Of a stretch of DNA of 64,000 nucleotides, positions 9,636 through 62,425 are shown one piece after another (position 1 is the first letter of the stretch; each line of letters opens with the position of its first letter). Source of the stretch: Marsupella aquatica (taxonomy: Eukaryota > Plantae > Marchantiophyta); assembly GCA_973895155.1 (NCBI GenBank), contig OZ316895.1, positions 6,620,084 to 6,684,083 of the forward strand. The letters are read 5' to 3'. Below the pieces are notes generated by a model, which did no database searches, was not told where the DNA came from, and worked only from the letters and a program-made list of their open reading frames with translations. Made by a program: the position numbers and the translations under genes.

Positions 9636-9646
9636 GCCTGCGCATG

Positions 9647-38450: not shown

Positions 38451-39174
38451 GTTATTACCCTAAACTGCTCTCACTCCAAAGTTATCCAAACTACCAACAA
38501 CATCTCTTTGTGTGTATGTTCTTAGAAAGTTTCTTTCTGTTTAATCTTGTTAGTCTTTGTGAAAGGAGGTTGATAGATTTATAACATGGTGGGATTGGAT
38601 TGGCTGTCATAGTTGGATTTGCTAGCACAAGTGAAAGAGAATCAAGACTATATCAAAATGTCACTAGTAATTAGTTTGCATCTCATTTGGGTTATCCTCG
38701 CTGCATTTCAAAAAATGATAAATGAAGACTTAAAAAATGTGGGGATTGGGACACGGGGCACATCTGGGAAATTGATAAATCCAGGCAAACATGAAGGCAA
38801 ACATTGATTTTTGACATTGGCAAGGGACTTTGTAGCTGAGGTGAACAGTTCTGTTGACAGACATGACATGTCTTATGCACAAAATTCAATGATAAACTTA
38901 CACCAATTTGTCTCTAAATGTCAATGGTTTATAGTCTGAAAATCAACTTACACCTGAAACCCCAATTTAAGGAATACTGAAGTATTAGATTAATTCCAAT
39001 TTTATCTAAATATTATTAGTTAATGAATGATCAACCTCTTTAACATTTGGTGGGATAATCAAAAACTAAAAATGTTTTGTTGCAAGATCTTTATAACAAT
39101 GCATCACTAAATGACATCAAGTACCTCTTGATCCATGCACAAATCCTTAATTAAACTGTCATTCATTGTTTCAA

Positions 39175-39750
39175 TTGTCTATTTAATTATTATAGGGTTG
39201 AATACAAAAAAGATTGACACGCACCAGGGTGCATGACCTACAATCATAGTAAGTACCACCCTTTAATTAGTTAGTTTCTTTACAACAATTAATAGGATTG
39301 TTGTATATTACAATGTCTACTGGACATTCATTTGAATGTCAATAATATCATGCCTTAATATCACCAAACTAAGGCCCCACTAACTAATATTATATCTTAA
39401 ATAAACTAACCAACTAACTAACTTGTCTATTTAATTACTATAGGGTTGAATACAAAAAATATTGACACGCACAGGGTGCGTGACCTACAATCATAGTATC
39501 ACCCTTTAATTAGTTAGTTTCTATTGCTTTGACTCAATCAGGCATGGAACCATATAAAATCAGAAATCATTGAAAGTTGAGTTCACTTGAAGGTGTAACT
39601 ATAATTATAATTTATTAATAGGATTGTTGTATATTACAATGTCTACTCGACATTCATTTGATTGTCAATAATATCATGCCTTAATATCACCAAACTAAGG
39701 CCCCACTAACTAATATTATATCTTAAATAAACTAACCAACTAACTAACTT
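39175..39750. repeat. Local duplication of 250-320 bp downstream of the transposase stop
   Basis: ttgtctatttaatta...tgacctacaatcatagta and ttaataggattgttg...aactaaccaactaactaactt each occur twice. Confidence 0.75.
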
Positions 39751-39844
39751 AGACAATAAGACTTGTCTAAACTTGAGTTCTCTGGCTACTACTATTCTGA
39801 GTTGCCTTTTAAACTGTATGCTAAACTACATGCTTCATTAGTGT

Positions 39845-42800: not shown

Positions 42801-43245
42801 AACTTGTTCTCATCCACCACCTTTACAGGCATGCCCATCCACAAGGCCTTTGGTAAAACTACTTCCACACCAGACCAACTCTCATTAATATGGTTGTTCC
42901 CATCAGAAATTTGATTGACTGGATCTTGATCATCACCAACAGTGCCAAACACATCCTCTGATTCCATGGGAGCTCGAAAAGCTGATTCCTTTCCCATACA
43001 AGGTAACCCCCAATCATGTCCTTCAAAAGTTTGCCATCTTTGCATAGAATGGTCTCGTCAAAAACTTCCTCCAATAGAAGAAGAACTCTGTCCGCCCCAA
43101 GAGGAACATTGTGACAAACCCTAGAAGGATCAAGACTTATCACGCGACCTTTTCCAACTTGTTTCTCACGTATGCCTATAATAACTTGTCCGCCTTCCCT
43201 GATCCAGACTGTCGATGTCACCATAATAATTATGATCCTACACAT
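39845..43245 (-). pseudogene. DUF7869/Sola1-like DDD transposase with N-terminal Tnp1/En-Spm-like domains; disrupted by frameshifts
   Basis: CCSEHCC...LCLEAWRII...TQFY...HGNAG; FSKCTTC; CLIHDKMDHSKTALP; LPRVLKLQLDNCASDNKNRY; FMVVGHTHEDVDGMFG; intron starting at about 41321; frameshifts near 43000, 42085 and 41080. Confidence 0.8.
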
Positions 43246-43849
43246 CAGAGAATATCACTGTAAGCGTACAGTCCTGTCACGTCCGTCAACTTCACTGCAC
43301 TGTCCTATCACGTTGGTCAATAAGCAGAATGTAGTCAATGCACTGCACTGCACTGCACGCGACTGGTTGCGTGACCCTAGAGGTACCACACATACCGGCA
43401 ACAGACTATGCATGGTCCGTCAATCATTTCAAGTGAATGAGAACGACCACAATTGATTACGATCAATCATTTCACATCCACTCAGAACAAATGAGTGGAC
43501 AGTACCAGTTTGCCAATGAGTGGACACTGGACAGTCAGTAACTACTGAGGATTGTAATTCTAATAAGCGCCAGTAAAACATCCGTGAACTGCATTGTCCT
43601 GTCACGACCGTCAACAAGTAAGCAGAATGTAGTCAATGCACTACCCTGCATGCGACTAGTCGCGTGACCTTAGTCAGAGGGTGTAGGGATAATAGGGTCT
43701 ACGACGTAGAAGCTAGAAGCCTAGGCCCAAACTCTAGCTCGTACTTGGTACTTCATAAGTAAGATACAATTGCGCGTGAGACAGTAAGATACAATTACGG
43801 ATCTGAAGGCATCACACATACCGGTAACAGATTATGGATGGTCCGTTAG

Positions 43850-44218
43850 TCATTTCAAGTGAGACTCATTTCGGATCGGTTTAATAGGATTTCCTGGGAA
43901 AGCCAAATCTAATAAACTAAACTTGATTACACCCAGAAGATAGGTATTCCCAACAAGGTGGCGCCATCTACGACACACCGAAGATAGTCCTACAAACTCA
44001 TCCAATTCCTTTATTGAGAAATTTCCTGCATTAGCCGAGGAATTCAATGACTCCTTGATCCGAGGCCATATCAATTCTGCGACAATCAAATCTGGAAGTC
44101 CAGGTAGTAGTGTTTCAACAAATACAGAATATCTTGCCAGTAGACCATCTTGGCTTCTGTCCAAAACGTCAAATATTGGGCATAGATATCTGAAGCTCTC
44201 TAGACCAGGTTCCCCCAT
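43850..44218 (-). CDS. F-box-like ORF or exon upstream of the transposase
   Basis: LLPGLPDLIVAELIWPRI...LSSVCRRWRHLV, an F-box with an internal insertion, paralogous to those at 51.8-52.9 kb. Confidence 0.6.
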   Translation of the reverse strand: MGEPGLESFRYLCPIFDVLDRSQDGLLARYSVFVETLLPGLPDLIVAELIWPRIKESLNSSANAGNFSIKELDEFVGLSSVCRRWRHLVGNTYLLGVIKFSLLDLAFPGNPIKPIRNESHLK

Positions 44219-44362
44219 GACTCTTTTCAGCCAAATGATATATCCCAGGGATGATTTTCACGCGACTGGTCGCGTCTACAAATCAGAATGTATAAACAAT
44301 TCTTTGGGAGATTGTGGTTTTTTTGGGTCACAACGTGACAAATCATAAATGTTGCTTCGTCC

Positions 44363-45810
44363 TCTAACAGAACCAGTCAATGAGATAGCTACCTCAAACG
44401 CGACTGGTCCGTCAACTGATCCTAAATAGAACGTTACCTTCTCTAACAGAACCAGTCAATGAGAGAGCTACCTCAGACGCGACTGGTCGCGTCACCTGAT
44501 CCTAAATGGAACGTTACCTCCTCTAACAGAACCAGTCAATGAGAGATCTACATCAGACGCGACCAGTCGTGTCAACTGAACATAAACAACTATATCCACT
44601 GAACCTTCCTTGTGGAGATTTGGATATGGTACGCGCTCAATAATCTATCCTGTTTCCTTCTCACACGCAACTGGTCGCGTCAACTGATCCCAAATGGAAC
44701 CTTACCTCCTCTAACAAAACCAGTCAATGAGAGAGCTACCTCAGACGCGACTGGTCGCGTCAACTGATCCTAAATGGAACATTACCTCCTCTAACAAAAC
44801 CAGTCAATGAGAGCTCTACCTCAAACGCGACTAGTCGCGTCAACTAAACCTAAACAACTATATCCACTGAACCTTCCTTGTGGAGATTTGGATATGGTAC
44901 GCGCTCAATAATCTATCCTGTTTCCTTCTCACACGCAACTGGTCGCGTCAACTGATCCCAAATGGAACCTTACCTCCTCTAACAAAACCAGTCAATGAGA
45001 GAGCTACCTCAGATGCGACTGGTCGCGTCAACTGATCCTAAATGGAACATTACCTCCTCTAACAAAACCAGTCAATGAGAGCTCTACCTCAAACGCGACT
45101 AGTCGCGTCAACTAAACCTAAACAACTATATCCACTGAACCTTCCTTGTGGAGATTTGGATATGGTACGCGCTCAATAATCTATCCTGTTTCCTTCTCAC
45201 ACGCAACTGGTCGCGTCAACTGATCCCAAATGGAACCTTACCTCCTCTAACAAAACCAGTCAATGAGAGAGCTACCTCAGACGCGACTGGTCGCGTCAAC
45301 TGATCCTAAATGGAACATTACCTCCTCTAACAAAACCAGTCAATGAGAGCTCTACCTCAAACGCGACTAGTCGCGTCAACTAAACCTAAACAACTATATC
45401 CACTGAACCTTCCTTGTGGAGATTTGGATATGGTACGTGCTCAGTAAATCTATCCTTTTTTCTTCTCACACGCGACTGATCGCATCAATTGATCATAAAA
45501 GGAACCTTAACTCCTCTAACAGAACCATTCAATGAGAGAGCTACCTTAGACGCGACTAGTCGCGTCAACTGAACCTAAACAACTATATCCACTGAACCTT
45601 CCTTGTGGAGATTTGGATATGGTACGCGCTGAGTAAATCTATCCTGTTTCCTTCTCACACGCGATTGGTCGCGTCAACTGGTCCTAAAAGGAACCTTACC
45701 TCCTCTAACAGAACCAGTCAATGAGAGAGCTACCTCAGACGCGACTGGTCGCGTCAACTGATCCTAAATGGAACCTCACAATCTTCTCACGCGACTGGTC
45801 GCGTCAACAG
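44363..45810. repeat. Tandem array 1: 268-bp higher-order unit (80+80+108 bp subunits), one ACGCG-N6-CGCGT motif per subunit
   Basis: aacaactatatccact recurs at 44585, 44853, 45121, 45389 (period 268) and 45578; about 17 motif copies such as acgcgactggtcgcgt and acgcgactagtcgcgt. Confidence 0.95.
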
Positions 45811-48379
45811 CTTAAACAACTTTTGGACACTAGGATAATACAGTGATACCACTGTGATTACTGACCCGTACGGACAAGAAAATCCGAGTAAGCATGATTT
45901 CATTCAATTTGTATTCATTCATTTGTATTCATTCATGAACTTTACAATAATTCAGATGTTTGAGCTCTGTCATTGTGAAACTATTATATATCACAAGTTT
46001 TCATATTGCAAGGAATTCAGTTTAGAGAATGATTCAGCTAAGATGATTCAATTTAGCAGTCTATTGGTTGTATTCGTCAATTAAAGGATTCAGTGTAATG
46101 AGATTCACATAACATGAGAGTTTATATGATTAAATTCACAACGTGCAGGTTTGTAATGACTTACTTAAGACGATTCAGGTTGTATTTTAATTAGTGAGTT
46201 TGTATGATTCAGACATATTTGAGTTTATAGACAAACTGCATTATGAAAACTCAGTTTAACAATCAAGAGAAATTTTAGCAAACAACAATCAACACTAGCA
46301 GAAAATGTAGAAATTGCACCTGAATTCTGAAAAATTGATGTAATCGTCTGAGAGATTGATGTCCAAGCACCTGAAGACCTTGCTGCGGCATTCCAGAAAG
46401 TAAATATAAGATTGAAGATATTAATATGCTAAGCAACAACAACACAACTTCTATATCTTCTATACATAGAGCTTCGCTGCTGCCAATTGAATAACATGTG
46501 CTTAATGCTAAGGAACTCATTATGTCGAGTTAAAAAGACTCTTCCAGAAGTACAATCAAAGTTGTCGATAGACAAACTGAGCATGAATAAAAGCGCACTA
46601 AACCTGAAGATTGAAAAAGTTGAAACAAACCTGAATGATGAATTAAAGGAGCTGAAACAAGCTGCCAAAAAGTAGTTCAAGCTGCTAAAACATGTTGATC
46701 GAGCTGATATGAGCTTAAAATTGGCTGACACAAGTTGATACGAGCACTCCCAAAAAACTAGCTGCAATGAACCCAACGAGCTCCTAAGAATCCCTTCAAG
46801 CAAACTAGAAGTGAATACGAGCTCTAAATGCGAGCTGCAACGCACCAACGAGCTCCTGGTCAAAACGATCAACAACTACTAAGAGCTGCAACGCGCCGAC
46901 AAGCACCTGACCACAACGAACGAGCTGCAACAACGAAAATGAAATCCAGGGCAGGAGCGAGAGCGACGAGAGCAGGCGTGCGAAAGTCTAGGGAGCGAGA
47001 AACAACAACAATGAACAGTGAACTCGAGACCGTGGGCGCCGACACTAAGGAAGGACTAATTAGGGTATCGTTTTAGAATAACCCTAATAACAGCCTAGTG
47101 ACAAGAAGGTTCCAGATGATCTCCGTACACTCCACCATCGACTCAACAAACTATGCAATCGTAAAAAAAATATTACCGAAATCCTTTTGATTTGCCGTAC
47201 TAAAGGAGATTTATATTTGATCGCCAATTTGAAATTTAAACCGGTAATTATGCAACTACAAAAGATTGTTAGTGGGGACCCCCGGATCCGGATCCGTATC
47301 TTCACGATATCTGCCAATTCAAATCCAAAATGTGAACGAACGACAACTTTCTCACGATCGTTCCATCACGTAGTGGAGGCGAACTTCAACATCATTCCAT
47401 TTTGGTAGTGGAGACCGTCGGATCCGGATCCGTACTCCACTCTCTATCTTGCCAATTCAAACCCAAACTCTAAACAACGTAAAACAATTGAACTCACGGT
47501 CGGGGAGAACCGATATTCAAAATCAATCCTATACAATGATTCTCACGACTGGAGACTCAACCAATTTTCAAAATCAAAATCGAGTCCAGATGAACACATC
47601 TTTCATGGAGTCAATAGACTGATCTCACTGCTCACGGATCATTCTTCATTTTCAGTTTCTACTGACCAAGATACTAGCTGGGCTCTCACTGGAGGCTGAT
47701 CCAAGGCACATTTGAGGTGGAGCAGATTGGATCATTCGACTATTCCAGTCGGAGGCGGAGCTCATTCAAGCAACGCTGGCGCAGTTCTTGTTGTATCACC
47801 TTCTTGGGGAGGGCACATCCGATCAACCGGGAGAGAGTTGCGACGAAGTGAGACGACAAAGATTTAGAACCTCCATAGTCTGCCTCATTCACCGAAGCAT
47901 TCTAGCAGACCAACAAAGAGCGGCTATTCTGAAATCACTGTCTGGCTGAGGATTTTGATCTCGATATGATCAACAAGTTGTCATTCTCTGGTGGTGGGAT
48001 TCGGTCACGATACTCAAGGAAATTGGAGTTCAAAGGAGGAGGCTTAGTTGGCTGGGACGAGGAGGAGGCTACGCTAGAAGGAAGAGGCTTGGCTGGGAGG
48101 AGGGTTGCCGCCAACATCGTTGAGACCACACGCAACTGAACAACTTGTAAGTATCAATCAACATTAATTCCGCAATAAATGAGGAGAGTAGTTGCCTTAA
48201 TTCACGCATTCAATGCATGAATTGAGTCAATGAAGTTATGGTCCAATTTCTCACTCCGATTTTGATCAATCCGTGTTTCAAGTCCAATACAGAAGCAATG
48301 TATCAGAAGTACTAGTAGAGGATCCGAATGAATTCTCTAGTCTAAAATTGTATGGCGTTCAATTATAGTTGTCCGTACA

Positions 48380-50430
48380 TTTTGGTATTGTTTATTGTAG
48401 TCGACGGCCTAGCGAAACGAAACATAATCGAGGTCCATTTCTCAGATCAAACTGATCTCAACTTGTTAGTAGGATGACTTGTTTTTTTGGTTACACATGT
48501 AGTTCATCACGCGCACAGTCACGTGAACCAATTTATCTTAGGTCTTTTGATATTGTTTATTGTAGTCGATAGCCTAGCAAATTGGCCAGCAATCTATTCT
48601 AAAACCCAAGTCTTCGTATCATCACGCGCCCGGTCGCGTTAATGTTTTAGAGGTTAGCAAAAGCTCTGCACTCTTAGACATAATCGCCCTTTATTTCTCA
48701 GATCTGCCTGATCTCAACTTGTTAGTAGGATGACCTGATTTTTTGGTTACACATGTAGTTTATCACGCGCACAGTCGCATGAACCAATTTATCTCGTATC
48801 TTTTGATATTGTTTATTGTAGTCGACAGCCTAGCGAATTGACCAGCAATCTATTTTAAAACCAAGGTCTTCGTATCATCACGCACCCGGTCGCGTTAATG
48901 TTTTAGAGGTCAGCGAAAGCTCTGCACTCTTAGACGTAATCGCCCTTTATTTCTCAGATCTGCCTGATCTCGACTTGTTAGTAGGATGATCTGATTTTTT
49001 GGTTACACATGTAGTTCATCACGCGCACAGTCGCGTGAACCAATTTATAACGTGTCTTTTGATATTGTTTATTGTAGTCGACAGCCTAGCGAATTGGCCA
49101 GCAATCTATTTTAAAACCAAGGTCTTCGTTTCATCATGCGCCCGGTCGCGTTATTAGAGGTCAGCAAAAGCTCTACACTCTTAGACGTAATCGCCCTTTA
49201 TTTCTCAAATCTGCTTGATCTCAACTTGTTAGTAGGATGACTTGTTTTTTTGGTTACACATGTAGTTCATCACGCGCACAGTCACGTGAACCAATTTATC
49301 TTAGGTCTTTTGATATTGTTTATTGTAGTCGATAGCCTAGCGAATTGGCCAGCAATCTATTCTAAAACCCAAGTCTTCGTATCATCATGCACCCGCTCGC
49401 GTTAATGTTTTAGAGGTTAGCAAAAGCTCTGCACTCTTAGACATAATCGCCCTTTATTTCTCAGATCTGCCTGATCTCAACTTGTTAGTAGGATGACCTG
49501 ATTTTTTGGTTACACATGTAGTTTATCATGCGCACAGTCGCATGAACCAATTTATCTCGTATCTTTTGATATTGTTTATTGTAGTCGATAGCCTAGCGAA
49601 TTGACCAGCAATCTATTTTAAAACCAAGGTCTTCGTATCATCACGCGCCCGGTCGCGTTAATGTTTTAGAGGTCAGCGAAAGCTCTGCACTCTTAGACGT
49701 AATTGCCCTTTATTTCTTAGATCTGCCTGATCTCAACTTGTTAGTAGGATGATCTGATTTTTTGGTTACACATGTAGTTCATCACGCGCACAGTCGTGTG
49801 AACCAATTTATAACGTGTCTTTTGATATTGTTTATTGTAGTCGACAGCCTAGCGAATTGGCCAGCAATCTATTTTAAAACCGAGGTCTTCGTTTCATCAT
49901 GCGCCCGATCGCGTTATTAGAGGTCAGCAAAAGCTCTACACTCTTAGACGTAATCGCCCTTTATTTCTCAAATTTGCCTGATCTCTTGAACTTGTTAGTA
50001 GGATGACTTGTTTTTTTGGTTACACATGTAGTTCGTCACGCGCACAGTCGCGTGAACCAATTTATCTTAGGTCTTTTGATATTGTTTATTTTTGTCGACA
50101 GCCTAGCGAATTGGCCAGCAATCTATTATGAAACCAAAGTCTTTGTATCATCACGCGCCCGGTTGCGTTAATGTTTTAGAGGTCAGCGAAAGCTCTGCAC
50201 TCTTAAACGTAATTGTGCTTTATTTCTCAGATCTGACTGATCTCAACTTGTTAGTTGGATGACCTGTTTTTTCGGTTACACATGTAGTTCATCACGCGCA
50301 CAGTCGCGTGAACCAATTTATCTCAAGTCTTTTGATATTGTTTATTGTAGTCGACAGCCTAGCAAATCTATTTTAAAACCAACATCTTTGTTTCATCACG
50401 CGCCCAGTCGCATTAATGTTTTAGAGGTCA
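48380..50430. repeat. Tandem array 2: about 8 units of ~256 bp with a 3-unit higher-order duplication, two ACGCG-N6-CGCGT motifs per unit
   Basis: acttgttagt recurs at 48461, 48717, 48973, 49224, 49480, 49736, 49990, 50246; motifs acgcgcacagtcgcgt and acgcgcccggtcgcgt. Confidence 0.95.
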
Positions 50431-50679
50431 GAGGAATCTCATGGATGATTTTTCCTTGATTGAAAAAATGGTTACATCGATCCCGAAGGACTTCGGATGT
50501 GGAATCCATATCCACTAGCGCTATCGAGGAATTTAACTGACCTGGTCTTTCGAACACTATTTTCCACGGGACAAAATTAAGCTACACAGTATCTATAACA
50601 AGTTCTAACTTGAACTACTCTTAAATCTGTAGTTCTAATCTTTGACTACTCAAAATATTGTAGACTTTGATCGAGTCAG

Positions 50680-51114
50680 TCATTCCAAGATGAAGGTGTC
50701 TGGTGTGGATTCCTTTGAATCCAGGAATTCTTCTTTTGCCCAAGTCCTAACGTCCATAGATTTTCTCGGCTTGCTCTTTCTGTAATACAAATCAGAATCT
50801 TCGTTCATCTCTAATTGCCTTTTCTTCGGTGCGTCCACTTTCTTGGCCTCCTTCTTGACTGTCTTAGCGTCTGCTGCTGGTTCCCCCAAAATGGATTTTA
50901 CGCATGCTTTGGCCTTCAACTTCTCCCCCCCCAAAATGGATTCGACGAGGGCTTTGCCCTTTAACTTCTCCCCTGATGCCATCTTTGTAGTCATCTCTGT
51001 CGGATTGCTCTCCATCTGATCTTCCATCAACAAATGTGGCGAACAATGTCGTCTCTCACAAAACATTTGACCCGATTTAGTCACCGTAAATATTATATTA
51101 CATCGCTGACACAT
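50680..51114 (-). CDS. Possible small Lys-rich protein of unknown function inside the element
   Basis: 144-aa ORF with internal duplication GEKLKGKALVESILG/GEKLKAKACVKSILG; no recognisable domain; real start more likely near 51025. Confidence 0.3.
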   Translation of the reverse strand: MCQRCNIIFTVTKSGQMFCERRHCSPHLLMEDQMESNPTEMTTKMASGEKLKGKALVESILGGEKLKAKACVKSILGEPAADAKTVKKEAKKVDAPKKRQLEMNEDSDLYYRKSKPRKSMDVRTWAKEEFLDSKESTPDTFILE

Positions 51115-51798
51115 TCTGTAAGGAGTACCACGAATTTAATATGTCGAATCTTTTGAATCGTTCGTCGGAACATCCTCATTCTTCGAGCTCAGCGAAGTAG
51201 TCATCGCCCTTCAAACAAGAGATGCGGACCAAGACTAAGAATTGGAAATGAGAGAGCTGATGTGCGAATAGATTATCCAGTAGCCAGAAAGTGGAAGGCG
51301 TGGGGGAATGAGCAGTAGGGATCATCTCAATGCTTTATACTATTTAGTCTCCACTAGTCATTGTACATAGTGGTTTCTAGAAGAGAGTGCGCGTTTGACT
51401 GGCGCGTATTAGAATTGGCGGGAAGTTCAGTTGTCCTCTAATTATAGCTTTAATTTCATGTTTGGCGACCGCCCCGGTAATATTGATTGCTAGTGAAGTA
51501 CTGAGATTGCTTATGAGGGTCAATAGTTACTGACTGTCCGGTGTCCACTCATTGGTAAACTGGTACTGTCCACTCATTTTTCTGAGTGGAGTTGAAATGA
51601 TTGTTGGTAATCGATTGTAGTCGTTCTCATTCTCTCATCGTCAGTTCAAAGTTTCTTCCAGAAATACCCAAGAATTAAATTTATGGGGTCAATGTCCATA
51701 GATCTTAGGGAACTCTTAGAGATCTTAGAGATCTTAACTTACGCGACCGGGCGCGTCATATGTCTTCTAACAATGTTTTGTGATATGATAAAAGCAGG

Positions 51799-52926
51799 AT
51801 GAGCCAACTTTTGAATGAGGCTTGAGATTTCCTTTCATCTCATGAAAGAAAACAGAAAACAATATGGGATACGCTGGATGAAACCTCCTCTAGTCTCATT
51901 GGAGGAATACCAGATGTTTTGGTCATTTCAAACATTTGGCCAATACTCTACAAACACTTTATTTCAATTGAAGGATTGCGTCGATATCGACACCCCGATA
52001 ACAATTTGGTTATCGATAGGGTCCAAGACCTTATTCGGCTTGGAGCTTGTAGCAAGAAGTGGAACTTTTTAGTTACAAATACAAGGTTATGGGCTATCCT
52101 CAAACAAGCAACCCGGATTGTCGATGACGCAAATAAAACACTTTACTACATACCCGAAACTGACGAGTTGGAGTTTGACTCATTCTGTCGAGTTATTCGA
52201 GAGGATATTTCTATGTTTCCAGAAATATATGTTCTTGGGACTACTACTTTTGATGAAATCGCATTGTTTATGAACAAATATAACTATTTAGATGAGGAAG
52301 AACGAGATGTTCTAATTGAAAGGTTTGGTAGATTTTCTTAGAATCTAGGTGGTCCCAGTTCGTAATGGATAGGTTCTTGTTCTTAATCTTTTCGATATTA
52401 TGTTGCAGTCCTTTGACATGAATCAAAAATCTCATCGTCAAATGATGATGGAGCGCATTGCACGTGCAAAGGTTATGAACCAAAACATGATATGGAGTCA
52501 AGCTGAAGACCTGATACCCGGTCTTCCGGATGATATTGTCGAGAAATATATTTGGCCATTAGTCAAAGAGTTTTTCCACTCTCTTGGGAATTTGTCGGAT
52601 AATGCGATTAAAAATCGGGTCATGGACTTGATCGCCATTTGAACAGTCAGTAAGAAGTGGTGCCACATAGTTACTTATAGTAGTACTTGGGGGATGGTCA
52701 CCTTGGTAGCTTACAACTTCACTGATAGACCAGGATATGAATCGCTTCGAAGAAATTTGACTTCACGGAGTGTAGCATTCAGATTTACAGAATCCATCAG
52801 AACTCTCCTGCCACTGGACATTCTGGGTGGATTTGAAGGATCTGAACTTGACACGTTTAGGAACCTTTGGTTTTGGTTAGATGAAGATGAGCGAAAGGAT
52901 TGGGTCAGGATAAATGTTCCTAAAAT
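51799..52926 (+). pseudogene. Two tandem F-box-like modules, probably 5' exons of the large cargo gene
   Basis: LIGGIPDVLVISNIWPIL...LGACSKKWNFLV and LIPGLPDDIVEKYIWPLV...I*TVSKKWCHIV; TGA stops at 51823 and 52640; phase-2 donor AT|GTAATC (52927) fits acceptor CAG|A ATG (53003) in frame. Confidence 0.65.
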
Positions 52927-53003
52927 GTAATCGGCATGACGCGACCATGCGCGTGTTAGTATTTTATAATAAATGTTTAACTTTCAATATTTGTCTATTT
53001 CAG

Positions 53004-56000
53004 AATGGATCCTACCAGAACTTCAAAGCAAAAAAGAGACTCGTCTAAAGCTGCTTCTCGTAAGAAAGCCAAGACAAAAATGACTCCCGCGGAGACATCC
53101 ATACTTGCATATCGAGGAAAGTCAATCAGAGAGAGAACAATGGAGACAAAGAGTATCCATCTCTTTGATTCGACTGAGATATCCGATTTTGGAATAGTCG
53201 TTCGCAATGGGGCTGTCCGTCTTGTGGTGGCAAAAAATGATAAAGCTACAGTTTTGGAGAGATCACAAATTCTTGGGTGTTTCTTTGAGAAGAACATGAA
53301 AGTTAAAGAGTGTACGGAGGGATTGGTTCTGCTAGTCAACGACGACCAGCAGGAGGACAAAATAAGCATTTGTTTGGATCGAACGCAATATGTAACCTTC
53401 AATCAGCCCAGAATCGATGATCTTCTAGGTGCAAGGCACTCCTTGGAAAAGGTTACTAGTGTGGGATATCCTTCCGATCCAAAGGGATCAACGGGCTCAG
53501 ATTTGATTTGTCAATACATTATTGACATACTTGAGTTCCAGAGAGTTCCTTTCAACCAGGGATTTTGCTTGGGAAAGGCCCCCCTAGTGACCAAGGTTGA
53601 AGTATACTCGGCGGAGAATCTTCCAAAAGTAATTACCTCAGCGAATGTCGGGGCTCTATTCGATTCTTTCCTCAAAGAATATAGTGTTGTGAATATATTT
53701 AAAAGCAAGTCATTTTTTGTTGAGACATCACGTTGTCATCTTGCACCGGACCATATCAAGTGCCGAGAGTGGAATCATGATTACACAGATAGGCTAAAGA
53801 ATTCACTCCTCTCTCATTCGGCTATAAAGTTTGAAAAGCGATGCTGCTTTTTAGTCCCTGTGAAGTGGGTTCAGTCGGAGGCCGACAGAGATCCCGACTA
53901 CAATGGGACGCCCTACGATTCGGCGCCAACAGAGGAGGACACTATGACCAGTCATTTTTGGATACTCGGAGGCCAGCACACAATAATGGCGTACAAATTG
54001 CTAAAAAAGGTTGACAAAGTCAGCCAAGTTGTACGAGACGCATGCGGTATTGTAGAAGCTGTAATGTTTTGGGCAACGCTCAACAACGACAATAATGTTC
54101 ATTTGATGGGACTATTGAAGGCTCTGCACCACTGTCATCAAACATCAATGGAAGAAGGACAATTTCTCACCATTGTACGACAGTGTCATAATATCTGGAA
54201 CTCATTTGGGCGGCCTGGATCACATTATCGTCATCCAAATTGGAAGGTATGTAAATAACCCTCTTCGATCACATTATCGTTTAAAATTTTGTCACGCAAA
54301 CTGGCCAGTCAATCTTAGAATTTTTCTCACGCAAACGGTCACGTCAATCTTAGAATTGTCATGTTTCCATTATTGTTCAGGTATTTATGAGAGCTACAAG
54401 TTTTATTTGCCCATGGGCTCAAATGGGGAAGAACGAAATGATGAAATTTGGAGAATTGGCTCCGTTTCTCTTTACAATGGAGGACGAAACATTCAAGAAG
54501 TGGATGGAGGTCTACGAACTATCAAGGACAGGAGAGCTTGTAATTTACAACGGAATTTTACAGATGGACGCCATCAAAATTGTGGATAATCCCTGTGCTT
54601 ATCATCTTATGAAGAAAACATTCCGTTCTTGTCAAGGGTGCTCGGACTCGGTTCTTCGAAAGGCAACGGAATATATGTTGAGCGGAAGACTGTCTATACT
54701 CAAAAACCGAAGCATCAAAGTGAAATCTGGGAAGGCGAGGAAGTCCTCTAAGGCTCCGGTGTTGTCAACGACCAGCATGAGTTTGGAGCAATTTTGTATA
54801 AAGAAGAAGACAAAAGTTGAGTTTGAGATTTTATTATTGAGTAAACTCAACGGGGATACATCCACCCGGACGGAGCTAAAAAGTCTGATAGATTCAGCGC
54901 GGAAATTGCGGGTCAAAGGAATGATTGATCGCTTTAAGCTCGACAAGATGGTGCTGAAGCAGTTGAGAGATGCGCTTAGTGGTTATTTGAAGAAGTGCTT
55001 AAATGTAAATATTAGTAATGATAATTTGTTGAAAGAGATCGACCCAATATTCCACAGGTTGGTGGAAGGAATACAGAAATCAGTTGATAGTCAAGGAAAC
55101 CAACTAGTGCGGCCGGTCGGTGAGAGGCTGAAATTACGATCCCTGCAGGATATACAAAATGTTGGGTTTGCTGACTATACCATACGTGAAGACAAGAACC
55201 TTGCGAGCTTGATTTATTTTGATTCCTCATCAATGGGAGATTTGCGTCCGCCCAATTGCCCATTCTATGAGGGGTTATTTCATGCTATTAGCGAGATAGG
55301 GGCAAAACCACACCATGTGGTTATTATTGTAGCCTCTCCCGTTGAGTCTTATTTAATCAAACGAGTATTAGGGAAGTACACACACTACGTTGCTGTCGAT
55401 AGCCATTATATTCAGAAGCGGCCGAAGGAGAAGAAGCTTATTGTAACCTACGCTTTTCACAGCTTGGCCTTCAGCACAATGGGCGATACACAAGCCCTCG
55501 AGTTCCAATTGGTCTCCAAATATCGGATTGAGAAGATAGCCAATTTTAAAGAGAGCGACGAGTACACAACACCTTCCCCAGAAAAGATACTTCCATTCTT
55601 TGAAAGTATTGTTAGTCAATTCGTCCAATGTGGGGAATGGGCTATATGCTTCGGCGAGGGAACCAACTTGATCCAGTGCTTAATGGTAAGTTTTGAGATT
55701 TATATTTTGGGGTTTCAATTTTAAGATTATTTAGATTTTTATATTCTCAATTAATATTGTGAACTAATTTTGGCTTTTTTTACAGGATGCTGGATCCAAT
55801 GTAAAATATTACTGCCCTGTGGCAATGCATAGGGAGTTGTCTTGTTTCTTGCAACACACCACGGCGACAATTGATACAACGCTGTCATTGATTGACCCAG
55901 TACGGGCTAGTATAGAAAAATGTATAGATAAATTAATGAAGTACCGTCCATCTGTAACTGCTCTCAGGGCTGATGTTTTGGATGTCCTCCACGAACAACA

Positions 56001-56107
56001 TATCCCTGCTAATATTTGTAATCAATTATTGCAAGAGTATGCCCTCTCTGAAGATTCTGATCGATTGTACATTCGGCCAACGGAGTACCCTCGTGGGCCA
56101 ATCCAAG
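53004..56107 (+). CDS. Cargo gene exons encoding a ParB/Srx-like domain followed by a degenerate beta-class amino-methyltransferase-like fold (exons 53004-54246, 54381-55685, 55786-56107)
   Basis: Three open exons joined in frame by canonical GT-AG introns; ParB-like CREWNHDYTDRLKNSL...FWILGGQHTIMAY; MTase-like ASLIYFDSSS (DPPY position), PEKILPFFESIVSQFVQCGEWAICFGEGT (KP..L...G..VLDPFxGxGT position), then CLM|DAGSNV. Confidence 0.6.
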
Positions 56108-56235
56108 GTAGGTTACTTTTGAACCCTCTTACTTTTTCTTGTGTCACGCGAACATGCGCGTGGACATTCTTAACATTTCTTTTCATGCAAATATGTGCGT
56201 AAGTCATTCTTATCTAATGATCTGATTTTATTCAG

Positions 56236-57954
56236 ATCAAGTCGATTGCGGCTTCAATGTTGAGGATGCAAGGAGCAATGGTGATGCGGATGGTGAGGGG
56301 GAATGTGACGCGGATGGGGATGTTAATGACCAAGATCCAAAGTGGATGACCGATACGCAGAACGACGTCGGAGATTTCAACAATAGCAAGGAAGAGAGTG
56401 ACGGAGAAGAGATGAAGGACGCTGAGGACGTTGATGAAGAGGACGAGGACATGGAGGGTTCTGAGGACGCTGAGGACTCTGATGAAGAGGCCACACAGGA
56501 TCCTTGACATGAGGCGGACCGAGAGGAGGAGACCAGAGAGGAGTCGGCCCGGCAGGAGGACGCCCGGCAGGAGGCGGCCCGGCAAGAGGAGCTTCAAAAG
56601 AAGGAGGCAGCCCCGCAGGAGGAGGCCCGACAAGAGGCGGCCCGGCAAGAGGAGCTTCAAAAGAAGGAGGCGACCCAACAGGAGGAGGCCCAACAAGAGG
56701 CGGCCCGGCAAGAGGAGCTTCAAAAGAAGGAGGCAGCCCCGCAGGAGGAGGCCCGACAAGAGGCGGCCCGGCAAGAGGAGCTTCAAAAGAAGGAGGCGAC
56801 CCAGCAGGAGGAGGCCCAACAAGAGGCGGCCCGGCAAGAGGAGCTTCAAAAGAAGGAGGCGACCCGGCAGGAGGAGGCCCGACAAGAGGCGGCCCCGGCA
56901 GGAGGCGGCCTGGCAGGAGGCGGCCCGACAAGAGGCGGCTCGACAAGAGGAGCTTCAAAAGAAGGAGGCTAAGAAGAAAAAGGCGGCAGCTAGAAAAGCA
57001 ACTGCCGCAAAGAAGAAGGAAAAAGCCGACACTGAGAAAGCCCAGGCTGAGAGAGTCCTTTTAGTGACAAAGGCAAATAGGGCCAAGGCGGAGAGCGTGG
57101 CGGCTGAGAGGCTGCTGGCCGAGAGGATGGCGGACAAGATCGAACAAACCGCAAGACCGGAAAGGGTGGAGGCGGAGAAGTTGGAGGCGGAAAAGGTTGA
57201 TTCCGCAAGACTGGAGAGAGAAGAAGCCGCAAGACTGGAGAGGGTGGAGGCGGAGAAGGTGGAGGCAGAGAGGAAGGAGGCCGAGAGGGCCGAGGATCTT
57301 TCGCTTATTCCTGAGGCACAACGTCTATCGAAAATAAAGCTGAAGTTGAAGAAGCCTTCTTCACCCTCAGTTGCAGTTAAGAAGAAAATATTAGACTAAT
57401 TTCTTCGCCCGGAGTTTGAATTTAACGATCCACCCTTAAGTACAGTCTCGTTGGAAGATTGGAATAAATATTCACCGGAGCAGCTTTGAGTCCAGGCTAT
57501 CCTTGCTTTGCAATATTGGAAGGGTCTTTTGATTACCTAGGAGAAAACTGCCACTACATCCAGAATGGAGACAATCATCAATAATGTCCGCTTTTCCGAG
57601 AATCGAGTGCAAGACCTGGGAACATCTTTGGCACCAGACTCGGCTCAAGTCGTTAAGAGACTAACATCTGACTTGATATGAGTGGGTTTGTGGTCTCGAC
57701 CCCGATATACTAGTACAGAGGTCACTCGCACAGAAATTGTGGCACCGGATATTTTGGAATCGAATTCCCAGATTGTGGAATATTTAAATCAAATGCCACA
57801 ACCATTCAAAGGTCTTCCTGCCTCATCACTCCAACCTTCACAAACTGGTCCGGTGGAGTGATCACTGCGGTCTCAAGGAGGGCTGAAGGATGTTGTTGCG
57901 AAGGAGGCACCCAAGAGATCAGCTGCAAAAAGGCCAGATCCACCCAATCCAAAG
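56236..57954 (+). pseudogene. Acidic and coiled-coil exon of the cargo gene, with a frameshift near 56893 and several in-frame stops
   Basis: Phase-1 splice G|AT continues into D/E-rich sequence, then EAARQEELQKKEA repeats; the track's Arg-rich 56431 ORF is the shifted frame until about 56895; stops at 57397, 57487, 57538, 57679, 57859. Confidence 0.65.
56571..56968 (+). repeat. Coding 63-bp (21-aa) minisatellite, 5-6 copies
   Basis: gaggcggcccggcaagaggagcttcaaaagaaggaggc... unit with alternating variants. Confidence 0.9.
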
Positions 57955-58105
57955 GTCATTCGCAAGCTATAAGCTTAAAGTTTCTATTATAGCCGTCATT
58001 ATTTTATTATTGATTTGTTATTGTTTCTGTTTTCTGAGGTAGAACCCTTAGGCTACAACCTCAGTACGTTATTTGAAGGCGTACTGAAATCTCTGTTTTT
58101 TGCAG

Positions 58106-58893
58106 TTTTTTGAAAATTTGGCTAGTCAAATAGATCAATGCCTTGATCCTTCTAAGGATATGGAAGAGCTATTGACCAAGTTCTTACAACACTCAATCAA
58201 GAGAAAACATATGATGTGTCTGAGACCGTGCGAGTTTCTCACCGATGATATAATTAATGTTTATTTGAGTTTTCTCAAACTGATTCTCGATAGAGTTGGA
58301 AAGTCAGACCTTGTCAAATTCTTCCAAACACACCATTTTGAGCTTCTCTCCATGGATCCTACCATTTTCGATGAGGAGAGAGCAGCTTGGACAAAGGAGT
58401 TTCCGCTAAAAATCAGTGAATACGACAAACTGGTCTTTCCAGTACACAATGTTGTGAAAGAATATTGGTCATTGGTAGTTGTGTATCCAAAGGAGAAATG
58501 GCTCGAGTACCTAGATTCTCTAGTTCATAATCGACAAAATCCTGGGGTGCTAGATATTGTTGGGAAGTATTACGCCAACGAAATTGGCTGGAGAACTGGT
58601 GTCAACTTGGATCTCTCAGGTTGGGAACGGATATATCGGAATGATATTCCTCACCAGAGTGACGACCACAGTTGTGGTGTGTTTATCTTGAGATACGCCA
58701 AGTGCTTGTGTCAAGGAAACAAAATTAATTTTGCCACAGATCAAATTGAGAAATTCCGTAGGGAGATAGTCTTGTCGTTATTTGACATGGACTTCCGCAA
58801 GCCGACGTCCGCAATAACCTAGTTATCGGGATCCATGCTGCTATGATTGACATTTCTGGCGGAATTCCAGCACTGAACGACCATCTTGTACAG
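58106..58893 (+). pseudogene. Ulp1/peptidase C48 SUMO-protease exon; catalytic His position reads Tyr
   Basis: LRPCEFLTDDIINVYL, LVFPVHNVVKEYWSLVVV, YLDSL, IPHQSDDHSCGVFILRYA; acceptor TGCAG at 58105, donor CAG|GTAATA at 58894; frameshift near 58810. Confidence 0.88.
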
Positions 58894-58979
58894 GTAATAC
58901 ACTTCATTTCAGTGTCTCTTTTTGTAGTCACGCGACCGTTCGCGTTATAAACTTATTTTCATTTCTTAATGTTTCACAG

Positions 58980-59885
58980 AAGCCAATCCCGAAACCCCCT
59001 GATCGAGTATCGAAGGCACCAGTCCGGAAGTCCGGTGATCGTCCGGAGGCGGGAAAAAAACAGACCGTTCTAGTACGTTCTCCAAACCCTACGGCACAAA
59101 AATCACAGGTACAGATGGCGCCTAATCCATTGGCAAAGAAGTCACCGGTTCAGAAGAGACTTGTAATTTTCGATCTGAATCGGGTACTTATCTGGTCAGA
59201 AAAGATCAGCCCTGGGATGCCCATTCGGTCAAGGGGTGTGAGACAGATGCACAAGGTTATCTATCCAAGGCCTGATTTAATGGAATTTCTTGAGAAGGTG
59301 GCAGATCTATACGACATTGCGATCTGGTCGTGCATGTTCAAACGGAATATTCTATCTTGTGTAAGGCTGATACTTTGACCCGAAGTTTTGAAACGTATTA
59401 AATTTATATGGGGACAAGAATCAACTCGACCTATTGGGAAGAATAATAATGACATCCCCTTATTTTTCAAATGTCTCTCCGACATTGCCGCCGATATTAA
59501 AGATTACAACATCGAGAATGTCATTCTTATCGATGATGCTGCATATAAGACAAGCCTTAATAACTTCTATTCATCGCTGTATCCCGATGCATATTCTGGG
59601 CTCGATGATGACCTATTTTTTAGAAAGAAACTATATCCATATCTATGCGACATGTCAATTGACAAGTTGACATTCCGCGAGCTCCTTAGTGGATATGGGA
59701 TTCCAACGTTCTCTCAAGAAAATCTTGAGAGAGATTATATTGATAAGACGAATCTTTGGAGGAGAAATGTGATCATTCGTAATTAGGGGAATAAAGACCA
59801 TTTAGCAAAGTTTGACGAATATATGAAATACTTATCTGCCGAAAAAGACCGTGCTATAGAAGCCCAGGATAAGTCCGATAAGTAA
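58980..59885 (+). pseudogene. FCP1/NIF-like HAD phosphatase domain 1, with two in-frame stops
   Basis: KRLVIFDLNRVL, IYPRPDLMEFL, YDIAIWS, FIWGQE, PLFFKCL, ENVILIDDAAYK; acceptor CACAG at 58979; stops at 59376 and 59784. Confidence 0.8.
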
Positions 59886-60009
59886 ACGTTTATTATCAAT
59901 TATTATTTATAAATTGATTGAAATTGAACTTTATATTTTGGGAGTGACGCGCCCGGTCGCGTGGTTGTTTGCAATTGCATAATATGAGAATCGAATTGTT
60001 CATTTACAG

Positions 60010-60714
60010 GTGTCTAAGTGGAGCAGGTCGCGTCAACTTCTAGTTTTAGGACTGGAAAACTTCCTGTGCTCTGTTTCAAAATATACTCCTCAGTTCAAGT
60101 TGACACCCGGAATTCGTATCGGATCTCTATGTGTCGTTCCGAGGCCGCATCTTCATGATCTTATAAAATTATGTTATGATCATTTTGATGTGATGGTCTG
60201 GTCTATTCTCGACGATAAATTGGTTTATCAGATACTTTCAGAAGTGTTGTCGAGCGACCTGTCGCAGCTGATATATGTGTTCACGCGGGATTATTGCTGG
60301 AATCTTGGTTATGTGAAGAAAAATTATAAGACTGTTGTCTTCAAATCTATTGAGAGACTACGTGATATGTTTCAAGATTATCGACTAGAGAATATAATCC
60401 AGATTGATGCCTGTCCTTCCCATACATGCCAGACAACTGTATGCGGATTATTGTTCTCTAAGTCATTTCAAGGATCGTTGGATGATGTCGTTTTGAGGGA
60501 TGACCTCATTCCATATTTACGAAAGCTATCAGATTTAGGGCTTTGTCTTGCGTTCGCTAACAAGTTTGATTATCCCATCTGGTCGATTAGAAATCTACAT
60601 CGAGATTGGGATCTGAACGAGGATATATGGGAGCATCTGTACGTGCAGAGACATGCGGATCAAGTTCTTATCAAGCACTTCAATAGACGTCACTTATCAA
60701 TGGCCAGAGTGTAG
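60010..60714 (+). CDS. FCP1/NIF-like domain 2, catalytic DxDxT motif degenerate
   Basis: LLVLGLENFL, PRPHLHDLIKLCYDHFDVMVWS, VVFKSI, ENIIQID; preceded by acceptor TTTACAG at 60009. Confidence 0.75.
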   Translation: MSKWSRSRQLLVLGLENFLCSVSKYTPQFKLTPGIRIGSLCVVPRPHLHDLIKLCYDHFDVMVWSILDDKLVYQILSEVLSSDLSQLIYVFTRDYCWNLGYVKKNYKTVVFKSIERLRDMFQDYRLENIIQIDACPSHTCQTTVCGLLFSKSFQGSLDDVVLRDDLIPYLRKLSDLGLCLAFANKFDYPIWSIRNLHRDWDLNEDIWEHLYVQRHADQVLIKHFNRRHLSMARV

Positions 60715-60800
60715 AGGATGTTGTCTCTATAATATGTGACGCGACCATTCACGTGACTACATCCATACGGGCTCATGCATCTTCTTGTGTTTCTCTACAG

Positions 60801-61472
60801 GAGATTCATTGCAGTAGAGAAAATGGGCTCATAGTTTTAGATGTGGAGCATCTACTCTGTTACACTGCACCGCATTCCCGACTGATGGCGGTCTCAACTG
60901 GAATTCGGATTGGGAATATACATGTTTTTCCAAGGCCTCATCTTCAGAAATTCTTGAGATTCTATTTTGAGAATTTCGATGTAGGGATCTGGTCCTCTCT
61001 TGGGAAGAACCTTTTAGATCAGATTTTAGCATCTATTTTTACTGCAATGGAAATGGCCTCATTTAAGTATATTTGGGATCAGTCTCATTGTTACTTATGC
61101 GATGGGCTGACATCAAATAAGCGGATATTTTTGAAGTGTTTTGAGAAGGCGTATCTGCAGCAAAATATAATGCTTATCAAATCCGATGCATTTCATGCTT
61201 GTTTAGATCCTGTTGTTGGATCATTATTTCCGCCCAAATATTTTGGGTCGGTTGACGACAGTTTCCTGATTAACTTGCTGATTCCGTATCTTAGCAAGCT
61301 AGCAAAATCTTGTGAGCCGCTTGTCATTGCCAATGGAAGAGATTATCCTGATTGGTCAGTTAAATCTATTTTTAGAGAGTATGATTATAATCATACTCTA
61401 TGGGAAGACCCTGTGATTCAGAGGCATGGAGATAGATATCTAGTAGAGCAATTTAACAGACTCCCAATTTAG
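60801..61472 (+). CDS. FCP1/NIF-like domain 3, catalytic motif degenerate
   Basis: LIVLDVEHLL, PRPHLQKFLRFYFENFDVGIWSS, YIWDQSHC; preceded by acceptor CTACAG at 60800; clearly paralogous to domain 2. Confidence 0.75.
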   Translation, partial: EIHCSRENGLIVLDVEHLLCYTAPHSRLMAVSTGIRIGNIHVFPRPHLQKFLRFYFENFDVGIWSSLGKNLLDQILASIFTAMEMASFKYIWDQSHCYLCDGLTSNKRIFLKCFEKAYLQQNIMLIKSDAFHACLDPVVGSLFPPKYFGSVDDSFLINLLIPYLSKLAKSCEPLVIANGRDYPDWSVKSIFREYDYNHTLWEDPVIQRHGDRYLVEQFNRLPI

Positions 61473-62289
61473 GACGCTTCCAAAATAATAGTCGGCATGA
61501 GATCAGATTAATTTGTATTGTCGTTCTAGAAACGATTTGTAAACTCCTTATATACTGGTTATCATATATAAAGGATCTTAGAGATTTATTTCTCTATTGT
61601 TATTATTCGCGTGAGCATGTGTCTTGGTCCCGTCAAGTTGGATTGGTTAAAATGTGATGTTGCAGTCATTTTCAGGGTTTCACGCACAGCCACGCGTCCT
61701 GTCGCCCCCTTTTTATTAAAATAATAATATTTAGTGATTTTCGGAATTTCCAAAGTTCGGTTTTCTTAAATTGGGGTTCTGAGCTTCAGAATATCATAAT
61801 GAAAAATCAAGTGAAGTTTTAAAGGAGTTTAGTTGGCCTTGACATTGATGCTACTGTTGAAGTGGCTCCTGATATTGGTGAACCAGGTGAAGAGCCAGCT
61901 CAACCCTCTTCTCTTGGGGCTGTACAATGTCTTGCAAGGATGAGACACATGGGACAGATTGTAAGAGAGTGAAAAAAATGTTAGTTTGTAGCTTATGTGA
62001 GACAACATCTGCTATTCATAGTTGATTAAAGTGAATCAAAGAGATCTGACTTGTTTGCTCAATGTGTTTCAAGCATACCCCAAACTGCAAATGTGAGGAG
62101 GAGTTATAAATTTCTGAAGTTTGCTCAATATTTGAGTAGTATATGAAAGGAGTTATAAGTTTCTGAAGTTTTCTCAATGCTTGAATGAGTAGTAAGTTTT
62201 GTAAATTGTAATCAAATATTGTGCACATTTTGAACTTTTTTTATAAGCAAATTTTAACTATTGTCCATTCTTTGTTTTTAACTTTAAGT

Positions 62290-62425
62290 ATGTGTGACAC
62301 TATTTGACTTGTGACCACAATTAGTGTCATACTATATTAGTGTCACACACCCTAATTATCGTCACTTACCTCAAATATAACCTCACAGTAATTAGAGTGT
62401 GTGAGACTAAATACTGTAAAGAGTG
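62290..62425 (-). repeat. Right subterminal repeats and right TIR
   Basis: gtgacacta at about 62294, tagtgtca at about 62322 and 62338, then TIR 62400-62425. Confidence 0.85.

What the first reader, a model, noticed from the sequence alone, without database searches (positions are those of the whole stretch)
43357..60754. Bipartite palindrome ACGCG-N6-CGCGT amplified in two unrelated arrays and placed singly in introns and spacers
Seen: about 17 copies in array 1 and about 16 in array 2, whose units are otherwise dissimilar. Isolated copies occur at 43357, 43650, 44260, 51741, 52939, 54329, 56146, 58930, 59947 and 60739, all in introns or inter-exon spacers. The arms are conserved while the 6-bp spacer varies (actggt, cacagt, cccggt, accatg, aacatg, accgtt). 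Two introns (55686-55785, about 57955-58105) lack it, and I saw no full copy outside the element. Inference: conserved arms with a free spacer suggest a dimeric protein binding site. The 16-bp length and clustering recall bacterial parS sites, which is notable given the ParB-like domain; four CpGs per site could make binding methylation-sensitive.
Basis: partly seen in the sequence, partly recalled or inferred. Interest (0 to 1): 0.88.

Follow-up and report, generated by a model that had tools for sequence, protein, structure and literature searches.

The report
Plant transposon studded with parS-like sites
A 24-kb plant jumping gene carries over 40 copies of one short two-armed DNA signal, in tandem arrays and singly in its non-coding gaps, and likely uses them as landing sites for a protein of its own, predicted to fold like bacterial ParB, that would keep the element free of silencing methylation.

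Summary
The motif is real: 40 copies within one mismatch against 0.11 expected, all in 43357-61697, only with a 6-bp spacer. It is longer than reported (about 20 bp, TSACGCG-ACYRGT-CGCGTSA), so the spacer is constrained. Lone copies share no flanks, 8 of 8 sit in the 18% non-coding share, and the arms show no compensatory pairing: a protein site, not a repeat fragment or RNA stem. The host is a 24.1-kb element (38283-62425) with inverted ends, TA flanks and a DUF7869 transposase. The motif zone keeps CpG (0.89) while the transposase and ends lost it (0.17-0.28). The cargo protein has a predicted ParB/Srx fold (Z 8.7) but lacks ParB's arginine patch and resembles Starship DUF3723. Best reading (0.5): a VANDAL/VANC-like anti-silencing system with an unrelated, probably ParB-like, reader. 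It is not a VANDAL member. Against: this copy is now methylated, CpG does not fall with distance from sites, the rich block could be a captured module, no second copy was found, and binding is untested.

The parts
38283..62425 (.). Whole element, 24.1 kb, TA on both sides (38281-38282, 62426-62427; probable target duplication)
38283..38449 (.). Left terminal inverted repeat (26 bp, starts CACTC) and subterminal GTGTCAC repeats
   Evidence: (I4)
62294..62425 (.). Right subterminal GTGTCAC repeats and terminal inverted repeat
38861..39027 (.). Second inverted block, left copy, about 600-750 bp from the end
   Evidence: local score 64; best of 200 shuffles 40
61710..61850 (.). Second inverted block, right copy, same offset; starts 13 bp from the last motif copy; keeps 2 CpG where the left copy has 0
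39219..39481 (.). Two decayed motif-like copies (39219, 39467) in a duplicated unit of the left end
   Evidence: 1.5% of shuffles; pattern chosen after seeing it; best unlisted matrix hit in 64 kb, 10.8 bits
39845..43254 (-). DUF7869 transposase, CpG-poor, about 3 frameshifts, no nonsense codon on its reading path
   Evidence: (PF25273, E 7.6e-31)
43357..43665 (.). Lone motif copies 43357 and 43650 in a duplicated leader 5' of the transposase; 43357 may lie in a minus-strand intron (43395-43230)
43432..43579 (.). Leader segment, inverted copy of 51393-51635
   Evidence: I1, I2, I10; 91% over 117 bp
43850..44257 (-). F-box-like ORF; lone motif copy at 44260-44275 just 5' of it
   Evidence: (E 0.008)
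44360..45804 (.). Array 1: 80- and 108-bp sub-units, 268-bp higher-order repeat, 17 motif copies
48422..50431 (.). Array 2: 256-bp unit with two copies each (115/141 spacing), 763-bp higher-order repeat, 16 copies
50680..51135 (-). Lysine-rich ORF, no family
51393..51756 (+). Leader (inverted copy of 43432-43579) followed by lone motif 51741
51826..52930 (+). Two F-box-like frames, each with a stop; motif 52939 follows
53005..54246 (+). Exon 1 of the large gene: PH-like N-half and ParB/Srx-fold C-half (WILGGQHT); open frame
54247..54380 (+). Intron with motif 54329 and partial copy 54294; position conserved in homologues
54381..55685 (+). Exon 2, open frame; helical region, then a possible degenerate amino-methyltransferase-like region (inconclusive)
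55786..57954 (+). Exon 3, intron with motif 56146, exon 4 with a 21-residue tandem peptide repeat, stops and a frameshift
58106..58822 (+). Ulp1/C48 protease domain (Tyr at the catalytic His position); motif 58930 in the next intron
   Evidence: E 6.9e-18
58980..61472 (+). Three NIF/FCP1-like domains without DxDxT, separated by gaps that hold motifs 59947 and 60739
61682..61697 (.).

Best explanation
The motif is a roughly 20-bp two-armed site spread through the non-coding parts of a 24-kb plant DNA transposon, and it is likely the target of an element-encoded dimeric protein, probably the cargo protein predicted to have a ParB-like fold, that would keep this part of the element unmethylated and transcribed, as VANC does for VANDAL elements. 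Shown: the site, its placement, the element's ends and genes, the CpG contrast. Predicted: the ParB/Srx fold. Inferred: that a protein binds the site, that it is this protein, that binding removes or blocks methylation over about 18 kb, and that arrays arose by tandem amplification of site-bearing units because dense sites recruit more protein. This copy is broken and has since been methylated.
For: Fixed spacing and 40 vs 0.11 copies. 8 of 8 lone copies in 50440-61700 fall in the 18% non-coding share, P about 1e-6 on my predicted exons; 6 of 8 predicted introns hold one. Flanks of 10 lone copies: identity 0.301 vs 0.304 shuffled; complementary pairs at variable positions 31 of 70 vs 35.6 expected. 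CpG o/e 0.89 in the motif zone, 0.28 transposase, 0.17-0.19 ends, 0.41 and 0.19 in two flanking transposons, 0.89 in a host-like ORF; third-position C before G 0.74-0.96 vs 0.29. The CpG change points (about 43055 and 61760) lie just beyond the outermost sites, inside the transposase frame and inside the shared terminal block, and no significant duplication or inverted repeat marks them. The transposase has no nonsense codon, so its CpG loss is probably ancestral rather than post-mortem. The ends carry a different repeat (GTGTCAC), the likelier transposase site. Fold: Z 8.7 PadC, 8.6 KorB, 8 of the top 8 chains are ParB/Srx-type by title or recall; Foldseek ranks 1-11 are ParB, Noc or PadC. 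VANC targets lie in introns, upstream of the transposase and in tandem repeats, and VANC has tandem peptide repeats (PMC5735166), as here.
Against: No binding or methylation data. Between array copies 10 of 87 CG and 6 of 53 CHG sites changed against 2 of 177 CHH, so this copy has been methylated, and motif CpGs (14 of 72 decayed) are hardly better kept than others (13 of 53). Inside the block CpG does not fall with distance from a site (0.67-0.94), whereas VANC's CG effect is local (PMC5735166). The uniform block with steep edges also fits a recently captured module. No second copy or related locus was obtained, so motif-protein co-variation is untested. The arginine patch is missing, Foldseek E-values are all above 0.001, Z near 8.7 is only just above what the tool calls a common arrangement, and the region that should read DNA gave a useless model (pLDDT 34). 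Two introns lack the site.
Confidence: 0.5

Rival explanations
1. The 18.5-kb CpG-rich block is a separate mobile module, recently inserted into an ordinary 5.7-kb DUF7869 transposon. Its CpG content reflects an unmethylated source, and the motif is that module's own protein site for transcription, replication or mobility, not for anti-silencing.
For: Uniform CpG inside with steep edges. Ends plus transposase alone make a plausible element. An 8-bp direct repeat lies near both edges (43271, 61696).
Against: Change points fall inside the transposase frame and the shared terminal block; the 8-bp repeat is at chance level (5 matches of 8 bp or more vs 2.4 expected) and overlaps the motif. The leader 5' of the transposase is an inverted copy of the leader of the cargo genes. 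A decayed site lies in the left end. Homologues at 24-55% identity keep the same intron, so the gene family is old in eukaryotic genomes.
Confidence: 0.2
2. The sites are bound by a host factor of the CGCG-box type (CAMTA, or FAR1/FHY3 on CACGCGC; both recalled) and act as enhancers that the element amplified.
For: All 11 CACGCGC and all 3 GCGCGTG in the window lie in the block, as do 28 of 33 vCGCGb boxes.
Against: Those motifs are single half-sites; a strict 6-bp spacing with a constrained centre is not expected, and no full copy lies outside the element in 40 kb of flank.
Confidence: 0.12
3. A true parS/ParB-type system: the protein loads at the palindrome, closes as a CTP-driven clamp and serves segregation, pairing or copy control of the element rather than chromatin state.
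For: Predicted ParB fold with a conserved box-I-like arginine; 16-bp palindromes in arrays as in sopC.
Against: Arginine patch absent in all 14 homologue records that matched the motif search; no ParA-like Pfam hit in 24 ORFs; profile comparison with SopB gave probability 0.1%; an integrated transposon needs no partition machine.
Confidence: 0.1
4. The motif is an RNA hairpin or splicing signal, or self-amplifying filler without function.
For: The palindrome folds as a short stem in most of 8 pieces tested, with z down to -2.2. An earlier unchecked note on another genome read a palindrome array in a moss transposon intron as filler.
Against: No compensatory pairing; position in the intron varies from 12 to 82 nt from the donor; z-scores span -2.2 to +1.4; no Rfam match; filler would not place single copies with unrelated flanks in six introns or gaps.
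Confidence: 0.08

Closest known systems
VANDAL Mutator-like elements with VANC anti-silencing proteins (PMC5735166, passages and section 9; PMC10398659, passages)
   Same: Short motif concentrated in introns, upstream of the transposase gene and in tandem repeats; accessory protein with a tandem peptide repeat; loss of CG methylation near sites implied.
   Different: Transposase is DUF7869, not MuDR; no DUF1985 or DUF287; target is a 20-bp CpG-rich palindrome, not an asymmetric 8-9-mer; candidate reader has a ParB/Srx fold; CpG retention is uniform over 18 kb.
Spm/CACTA TnpA regulatory system (bioRxiv 10.64898/2026.08.24.746577, abstract and first third of main text)
   Same: Element-encoded sequence-specific factor that needs dense motif clusters; CAC-starting ends with subterminal repeats.
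   Different: TnpA sites and hypomethylation are confined to the termini; here the termini are the CpG-poor part and the sites are internal. No Tnp2 domain.
Bacterial ParB/parS, F-plasmid SopB/sopC, RK2 KorB
   Same: ParB/Srx fold; 16-bp palindrome inside tandem repeats (sopC); dispersed single operators (KorB, recalled).
   Different: GGQHT in place of the arginine patch; no ParA seen; spliced eukaryotic gene linked to Ulp1, F-box and NIF domains; different site sequence.
DUF3723 (PF12520), conserved accessory gene of fungal Starships (bioRxiv 10.1101/2021.12.13.472469, passages)
   Same: Best language-model look-alike of the ParB-like half (cosine 0.96); accessory protein of a large mobile element with no tested function in the passages read.
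   Different: No Pfam match by sequence; Starships move by a tyrosine recombinase; no motif system is described in the passages read.
Phage ParB-DNA methylase fusions
   Same: Top viral fold hit is a 479-residue phage 'DNA methylase' matched over about 170 columns; a methylase-like region may follow the ParB domain here.
   Different: Methylase similarity is not significant and the catalytic motif is not kept.

Membership tests
VANDAL/VANC | MuDR-type transposase | tested here: not met
   Only DUF7869 hits the transposase frames
VANDAL/VANC | VANC protein with DUF1985/DUF287 | tested here: not met
   No such hit in 24 plus 5 element ORFs; short stop-broken stretches were not scanned
VANDAL/VANC | Target motif in introns, upstream of the transposase and in tandem repeats | tested here: met
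VANDAL/VANC | Protein binds the motif and causes hypomethylation | not testable with these tools
   Only the CpG record is available
ParB/parS (CTPase clamp) | ParB/Srx N-terminal fold | tested here: met
   Predicted model, Z 8.7 (rmsd 3.0, 99 aligned) to PadC and 8.6 (2.8, 94) to KorB; Foldseek E above 0.001
ParB/parS (CTPase clamp) | Arginine patch GxxRxxA (recalled) | tested here: not met
   GGQHT, DGQHS or DGQYS in the window and in all 14 homologue records that matched
ParB/parS (CTPase clamp) | Helix-turn-helix DNA-binding domain after the N-terminal domain | tested here: inconclusive
   Exon 2 model pLDDT 34 from 3 sequences
ParB/parS (CTPase clamp) | 16-bp palindromic site in clusters | tested here: met
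   compare sopC
ParB/parS (CTPase clamp) | ParA partner | tested here: inconclusive
   No hit in scanned ORFs; the decayed centre 45830-48370 is unassigned
ParB/parS (CTPase clamp) | CTP binding and sliding | not testable with these tools
   Bench test
CACTA/EnSpm | Tnp2 (Transposase_21) transposase | tested here: not met
   Absent in the element, present in the flanking element at 5155-6954
CACTA/EnSpm | Short CACT termini with subterminal repeats | tested here: met
   CACTC ends and GTGTCAC repeats; a TA flank of 2 bp is weak evidence
Beta-class N4/N6 DNA methyltransferase | Fold and motif order | tested here: inconclusive
   hhalign probability 1.7%, score 20.3 vs best 18.2 of 40 shuffles; HMM E 0.012 for one comparison; no atlas hit
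DUF7869 transposon superfamily (Sola or CMC, recalled) | Assignment of the catalytic domain to a named superfamily | not tested
   No paper holds 'DUF7869'; no profile of Sola or Chapaev was on hand

The most novel reading that the evidence does not exclude
A plant transposon has turned a bacterial-type ParB/parS pair into a chromatin tool: its ParB-fold protein dimerises on the 20-bp palindrome, spreads along 18 kb like a clamp and shields the DNA from CG methylation, carrying SUMO-protease, F-box and dead CTD-phosphatase modules with it. It would be the first such system in a eukaryotic nucleus and would suggest the same job for DUF3723 in fungal Starships.
Probability: 0.22. Interest if true: 0.92.

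Novelty: new variant of a known kind. Interest (0 to 1): 0.7.

Why it matters
Sequence-specific anti-silencing by transposons is shown for VANC, TnpA and one MuDR transposase in flowering plants (papers read). A version in another transposon lineage, with an unrelated reader, would show that the strategy evolved again and give a defined site-protein pair for testing. It also offers a concrete, testable job for a ParB-like family of large eukaryotic mobile elements, including the Starship accessory DUF3723. My searches found no paper with DUF3723 and ParB together, none with DUF7869, and no listing that describes such an element (listings only; subscription journals are not covered).

Tried and rejected
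No genome is held for this window, so no genome-wide motif count or copy census. No sequencing runs were obtained, so splicing, expression and ends are unconfirmed by reads. Related DNA: the metagenome scan gave 1 locus of 39 candidates, a bacterial response regulator read in the opposite frame, rejected; viral contigs 0 of 16 and 0 of 1; prokaryotic genomes 0 of 27. An 18-bp form of the motif occurs once each in 9 viral contigs of 55-73% GC, with at most two further one-mismatch copies within 1.5 kb, i.e. no arrays. Searches for long homologues of exon 1 and of the transposase found none, which is weak evidence. No solved-structure sequence match for exon 1 or the transposase; phage tblastn only at E 3-5; PHROGs gave a ParB-like family at E 0.2. 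Methyltransferase test inconclusive. Longer dispersed repeat, RNA stem, Rfam family and own termini of an inner element were tested and not supported; 1 of 45 flank pairs (56146/58930) scored above all 30 shuffles. Array spacings show no common helical phase. Host species not determined: the named homologues are two Calypogeia fissa proteins among 20 looked up; CG plus CHG decay points to a land plant.
Full report
1. The observation. ACGCG-N6-CGCGT occurs 21 times exactly, and no other spacer from 0 to 14 occurs at all. Within one mismatch there are 40 copies against 0.11 expected, all between 43357 and 61697. Within two mismatches there are 44 hits in 43000-62000; after dropping one that overlaps the 61682 copy, 43 remain (16 in each array, 11 single), and all 25 of their mismatches are CpG transitions. 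The consensus over 16 symmetrised units is TSACGCG-ACYRGT-CGCGTSA, so the site is about 20 bp and its centre is constrained (27 bits from 14 units).

2. What kind of signal. Single copies are not pieces of a longer repeat: the flanks of 10 copies are 0.301 identical against 0.304 for shuffles, and the two arrays share nothing once the core is removed. In 50440-61700, 8 of 8 single copies lie in the 18% that is non-coding on my exon model. Six of 8 predicted introns hold one, at 12-82 nt from the donor. The variable positions of the two arms do not compensate (31 complementary pairs of 70, 35.6 expected), folding scores are mixed and Rfam has no match. Two independent half-sites at a fixed distance point to a dimeric DNA-binding protein. 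That step is inference.

3. The element. Inverted 26-bp ends starting CACTC, flanked by TA, bound 38283-62425, with GTGTCAC repeats inside both ends and a second inverted block at the same offset from each end. The right block begins 13 bp from the last motif copy. The left part codes for a DUF7869 transposase on the minus strand. The rest holds three F-box-like frames, two arrays, an unassigned centre, and a spliced gene or gene row with a ParB-like exon, a peptide repeat, a Ulp1 domain and three NIF domains. A 117-bp leader sits, inverted, in front of both the transposase and the cargo genes, each time followed by a site. A search with exon 1 found 26 proteins among 1.84 billion; of 20 homologues looked up, two are named, both from the liverwort Calypogeia fissa. 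Eight of 9 genomic homologues checked end in the read-through of the same donor, and P0022 spans the exon 1-2 joint, so that intron is real and old. The host is probably a non-seed land plant; this is not determined.

4. The candidate reader. The model of exon 1 (pLDDT 75.5, pTM 0.45) has a PH-like N-half (Z about 4.5, a common level) and a C-half that matches PadC (Z 8.7), KorB (8.6), SerK, sulfiredoxin and SbnI. Foldseek ranks ParB, Noc and PadC first to eleventh but with E above 0.001, and viral hits are mostly ParB proteins, led by a phage DNA methylase. The atlas places it next to DUF3723 (0.96), a conserved Starship accessory gene (bioRxiv 10.1101/2021.12.13.472469, passages). A box-I-like arginine is kept, the arginine patch is not (canonical motifs recalled). 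Exon 2 could not be modelled, and its likeness to beta-class methyltransferases is weak. So the fold is a fair prediction; CTP use and DNA recognition are open.

5. The methylation record. CpG observed/expected is 0.89 across 43215-61700, 0.28 in the transposase, 0.17-0.19 in the ends, 0.41 and 0.19 in two flanking transposons and 0.89 in a host-like ORF. The transposase reads through with about three frameshifts and no nonsense codon, while exons 4-6 of the cargo gene carry 11 stops on my frames and exons 1-3 none in 956 codons. The CpG-poor part is therefore not simply the older wreck. The change points lie at about 43055 (42930-43145) and 61760 (61760-61825), a little beyond the outermost sites and inside shell sequence. 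Against a simple protection model: CpG is flat with distance from sites inside the block, and recent changes between array copies are mostly CG and CHG transitions, motif included. This copy has been methylated, as expected of a dead copy, but that also means that protection is not seen directly.

6. Mechanism. The anatomy matches VANDAL: VANC binds a short motif that accumulates in introns, upstream of the transposase gene and in tandem repeats, VANC has tandem peptide repeats, and hypomethylation spreads from the sites (PMC5735166, passages and section 9; PMC10398659, passages). TnpA likewise needs dense motif clusters, but acts at termini (bioRxiv 10.64898/2026.08.24.746577, first third of the main text). 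I commit to an anti-silencing system of this kind with a different reader, probably the ParB-like protein (0.5). Rivals: a captured module with its own site (0.2), host CGCG-box factors (0.12), a true partition-type clamp (0.1), RNA signal or filler (0.08).

7. Membership and novelty. It is not a VANDAL (no MuDR transposase, no VANC domains), not a CACTA by transposase, and not a canonical ParB system (arginine patch absent). It works most like VANDAL/VANC. I found no description in the library searched. Papers read for context without bearing on the verdict: PMC4738411, PMC4455052, PMC5751038 and bioRxiv 10.1101/2021.02.12.428880 (passages). The main limit is that only one copy was available: no genome, no reads and no related locus.

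8. Verdict. Real feature, new variant of a known kind, interest 0.7. The boldest reading left open, a ParB/parS-like pair reused against silencing, has probability about 0.22.

Noticed in passing
window 3325-9662: CACTA element on the minus strand (Tnp2, DUF4218, DUF4216) followed by a twin-BRCT ORF (7490-8407) and an NSD-like PHD ORF (8955-9662), possibly its accessory genes.
   Followed up: partly
window 16010-17914: Copia-type polymerase fragment by its translation, CpG o/e 0.19; used only as a control.
   Followed up: partly
window 22693-24306: Intact 537-residue single-frame ORF with high CpG (0.89) and no Pfam family.
   Followed up: partly
window 29236-35831: Inverted pair 29756-30400 / 35209-35831 (66% over 685 nt) with four related 130-150-bp repeats nearby: probably another element.
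   Followed up: no
window 44700-45710: On the minus strand of array 1 an acceptor-like site is followed 6 nt later by a donor-like site in 7 units; could be amplified micro-exons or chance.
   Followed up: no
window 45830-48370: Unassigned centre: decayed coiled-coil-like frame near 46250-47050 (+), AACCCTAA boxes near 47060-47090, a 77-bp duplication (47266/47402); no motif copy, yet CpG 0.86.
   Followed up: partly
window 58106-61472: All three NIF domains lack DxDxT and the Ulp1 domain has Tyr at the His position; stops crowd into exons 4-6 while exons 1-3 are open.
   Followed up: partly
window 61376-61399: Perfect 24-bp palindrome inside the third NIF frame.
   Followed up: no
window 41068-41097: 14-bp tandem duplication that shifts the transposase frame at the DNC motif.
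   Followed up: no
window 53110-53560: N-half of exon 1 is predicted with high confidence as a PH-like domain fused to the ParB-like domain.
   Followed up: partly
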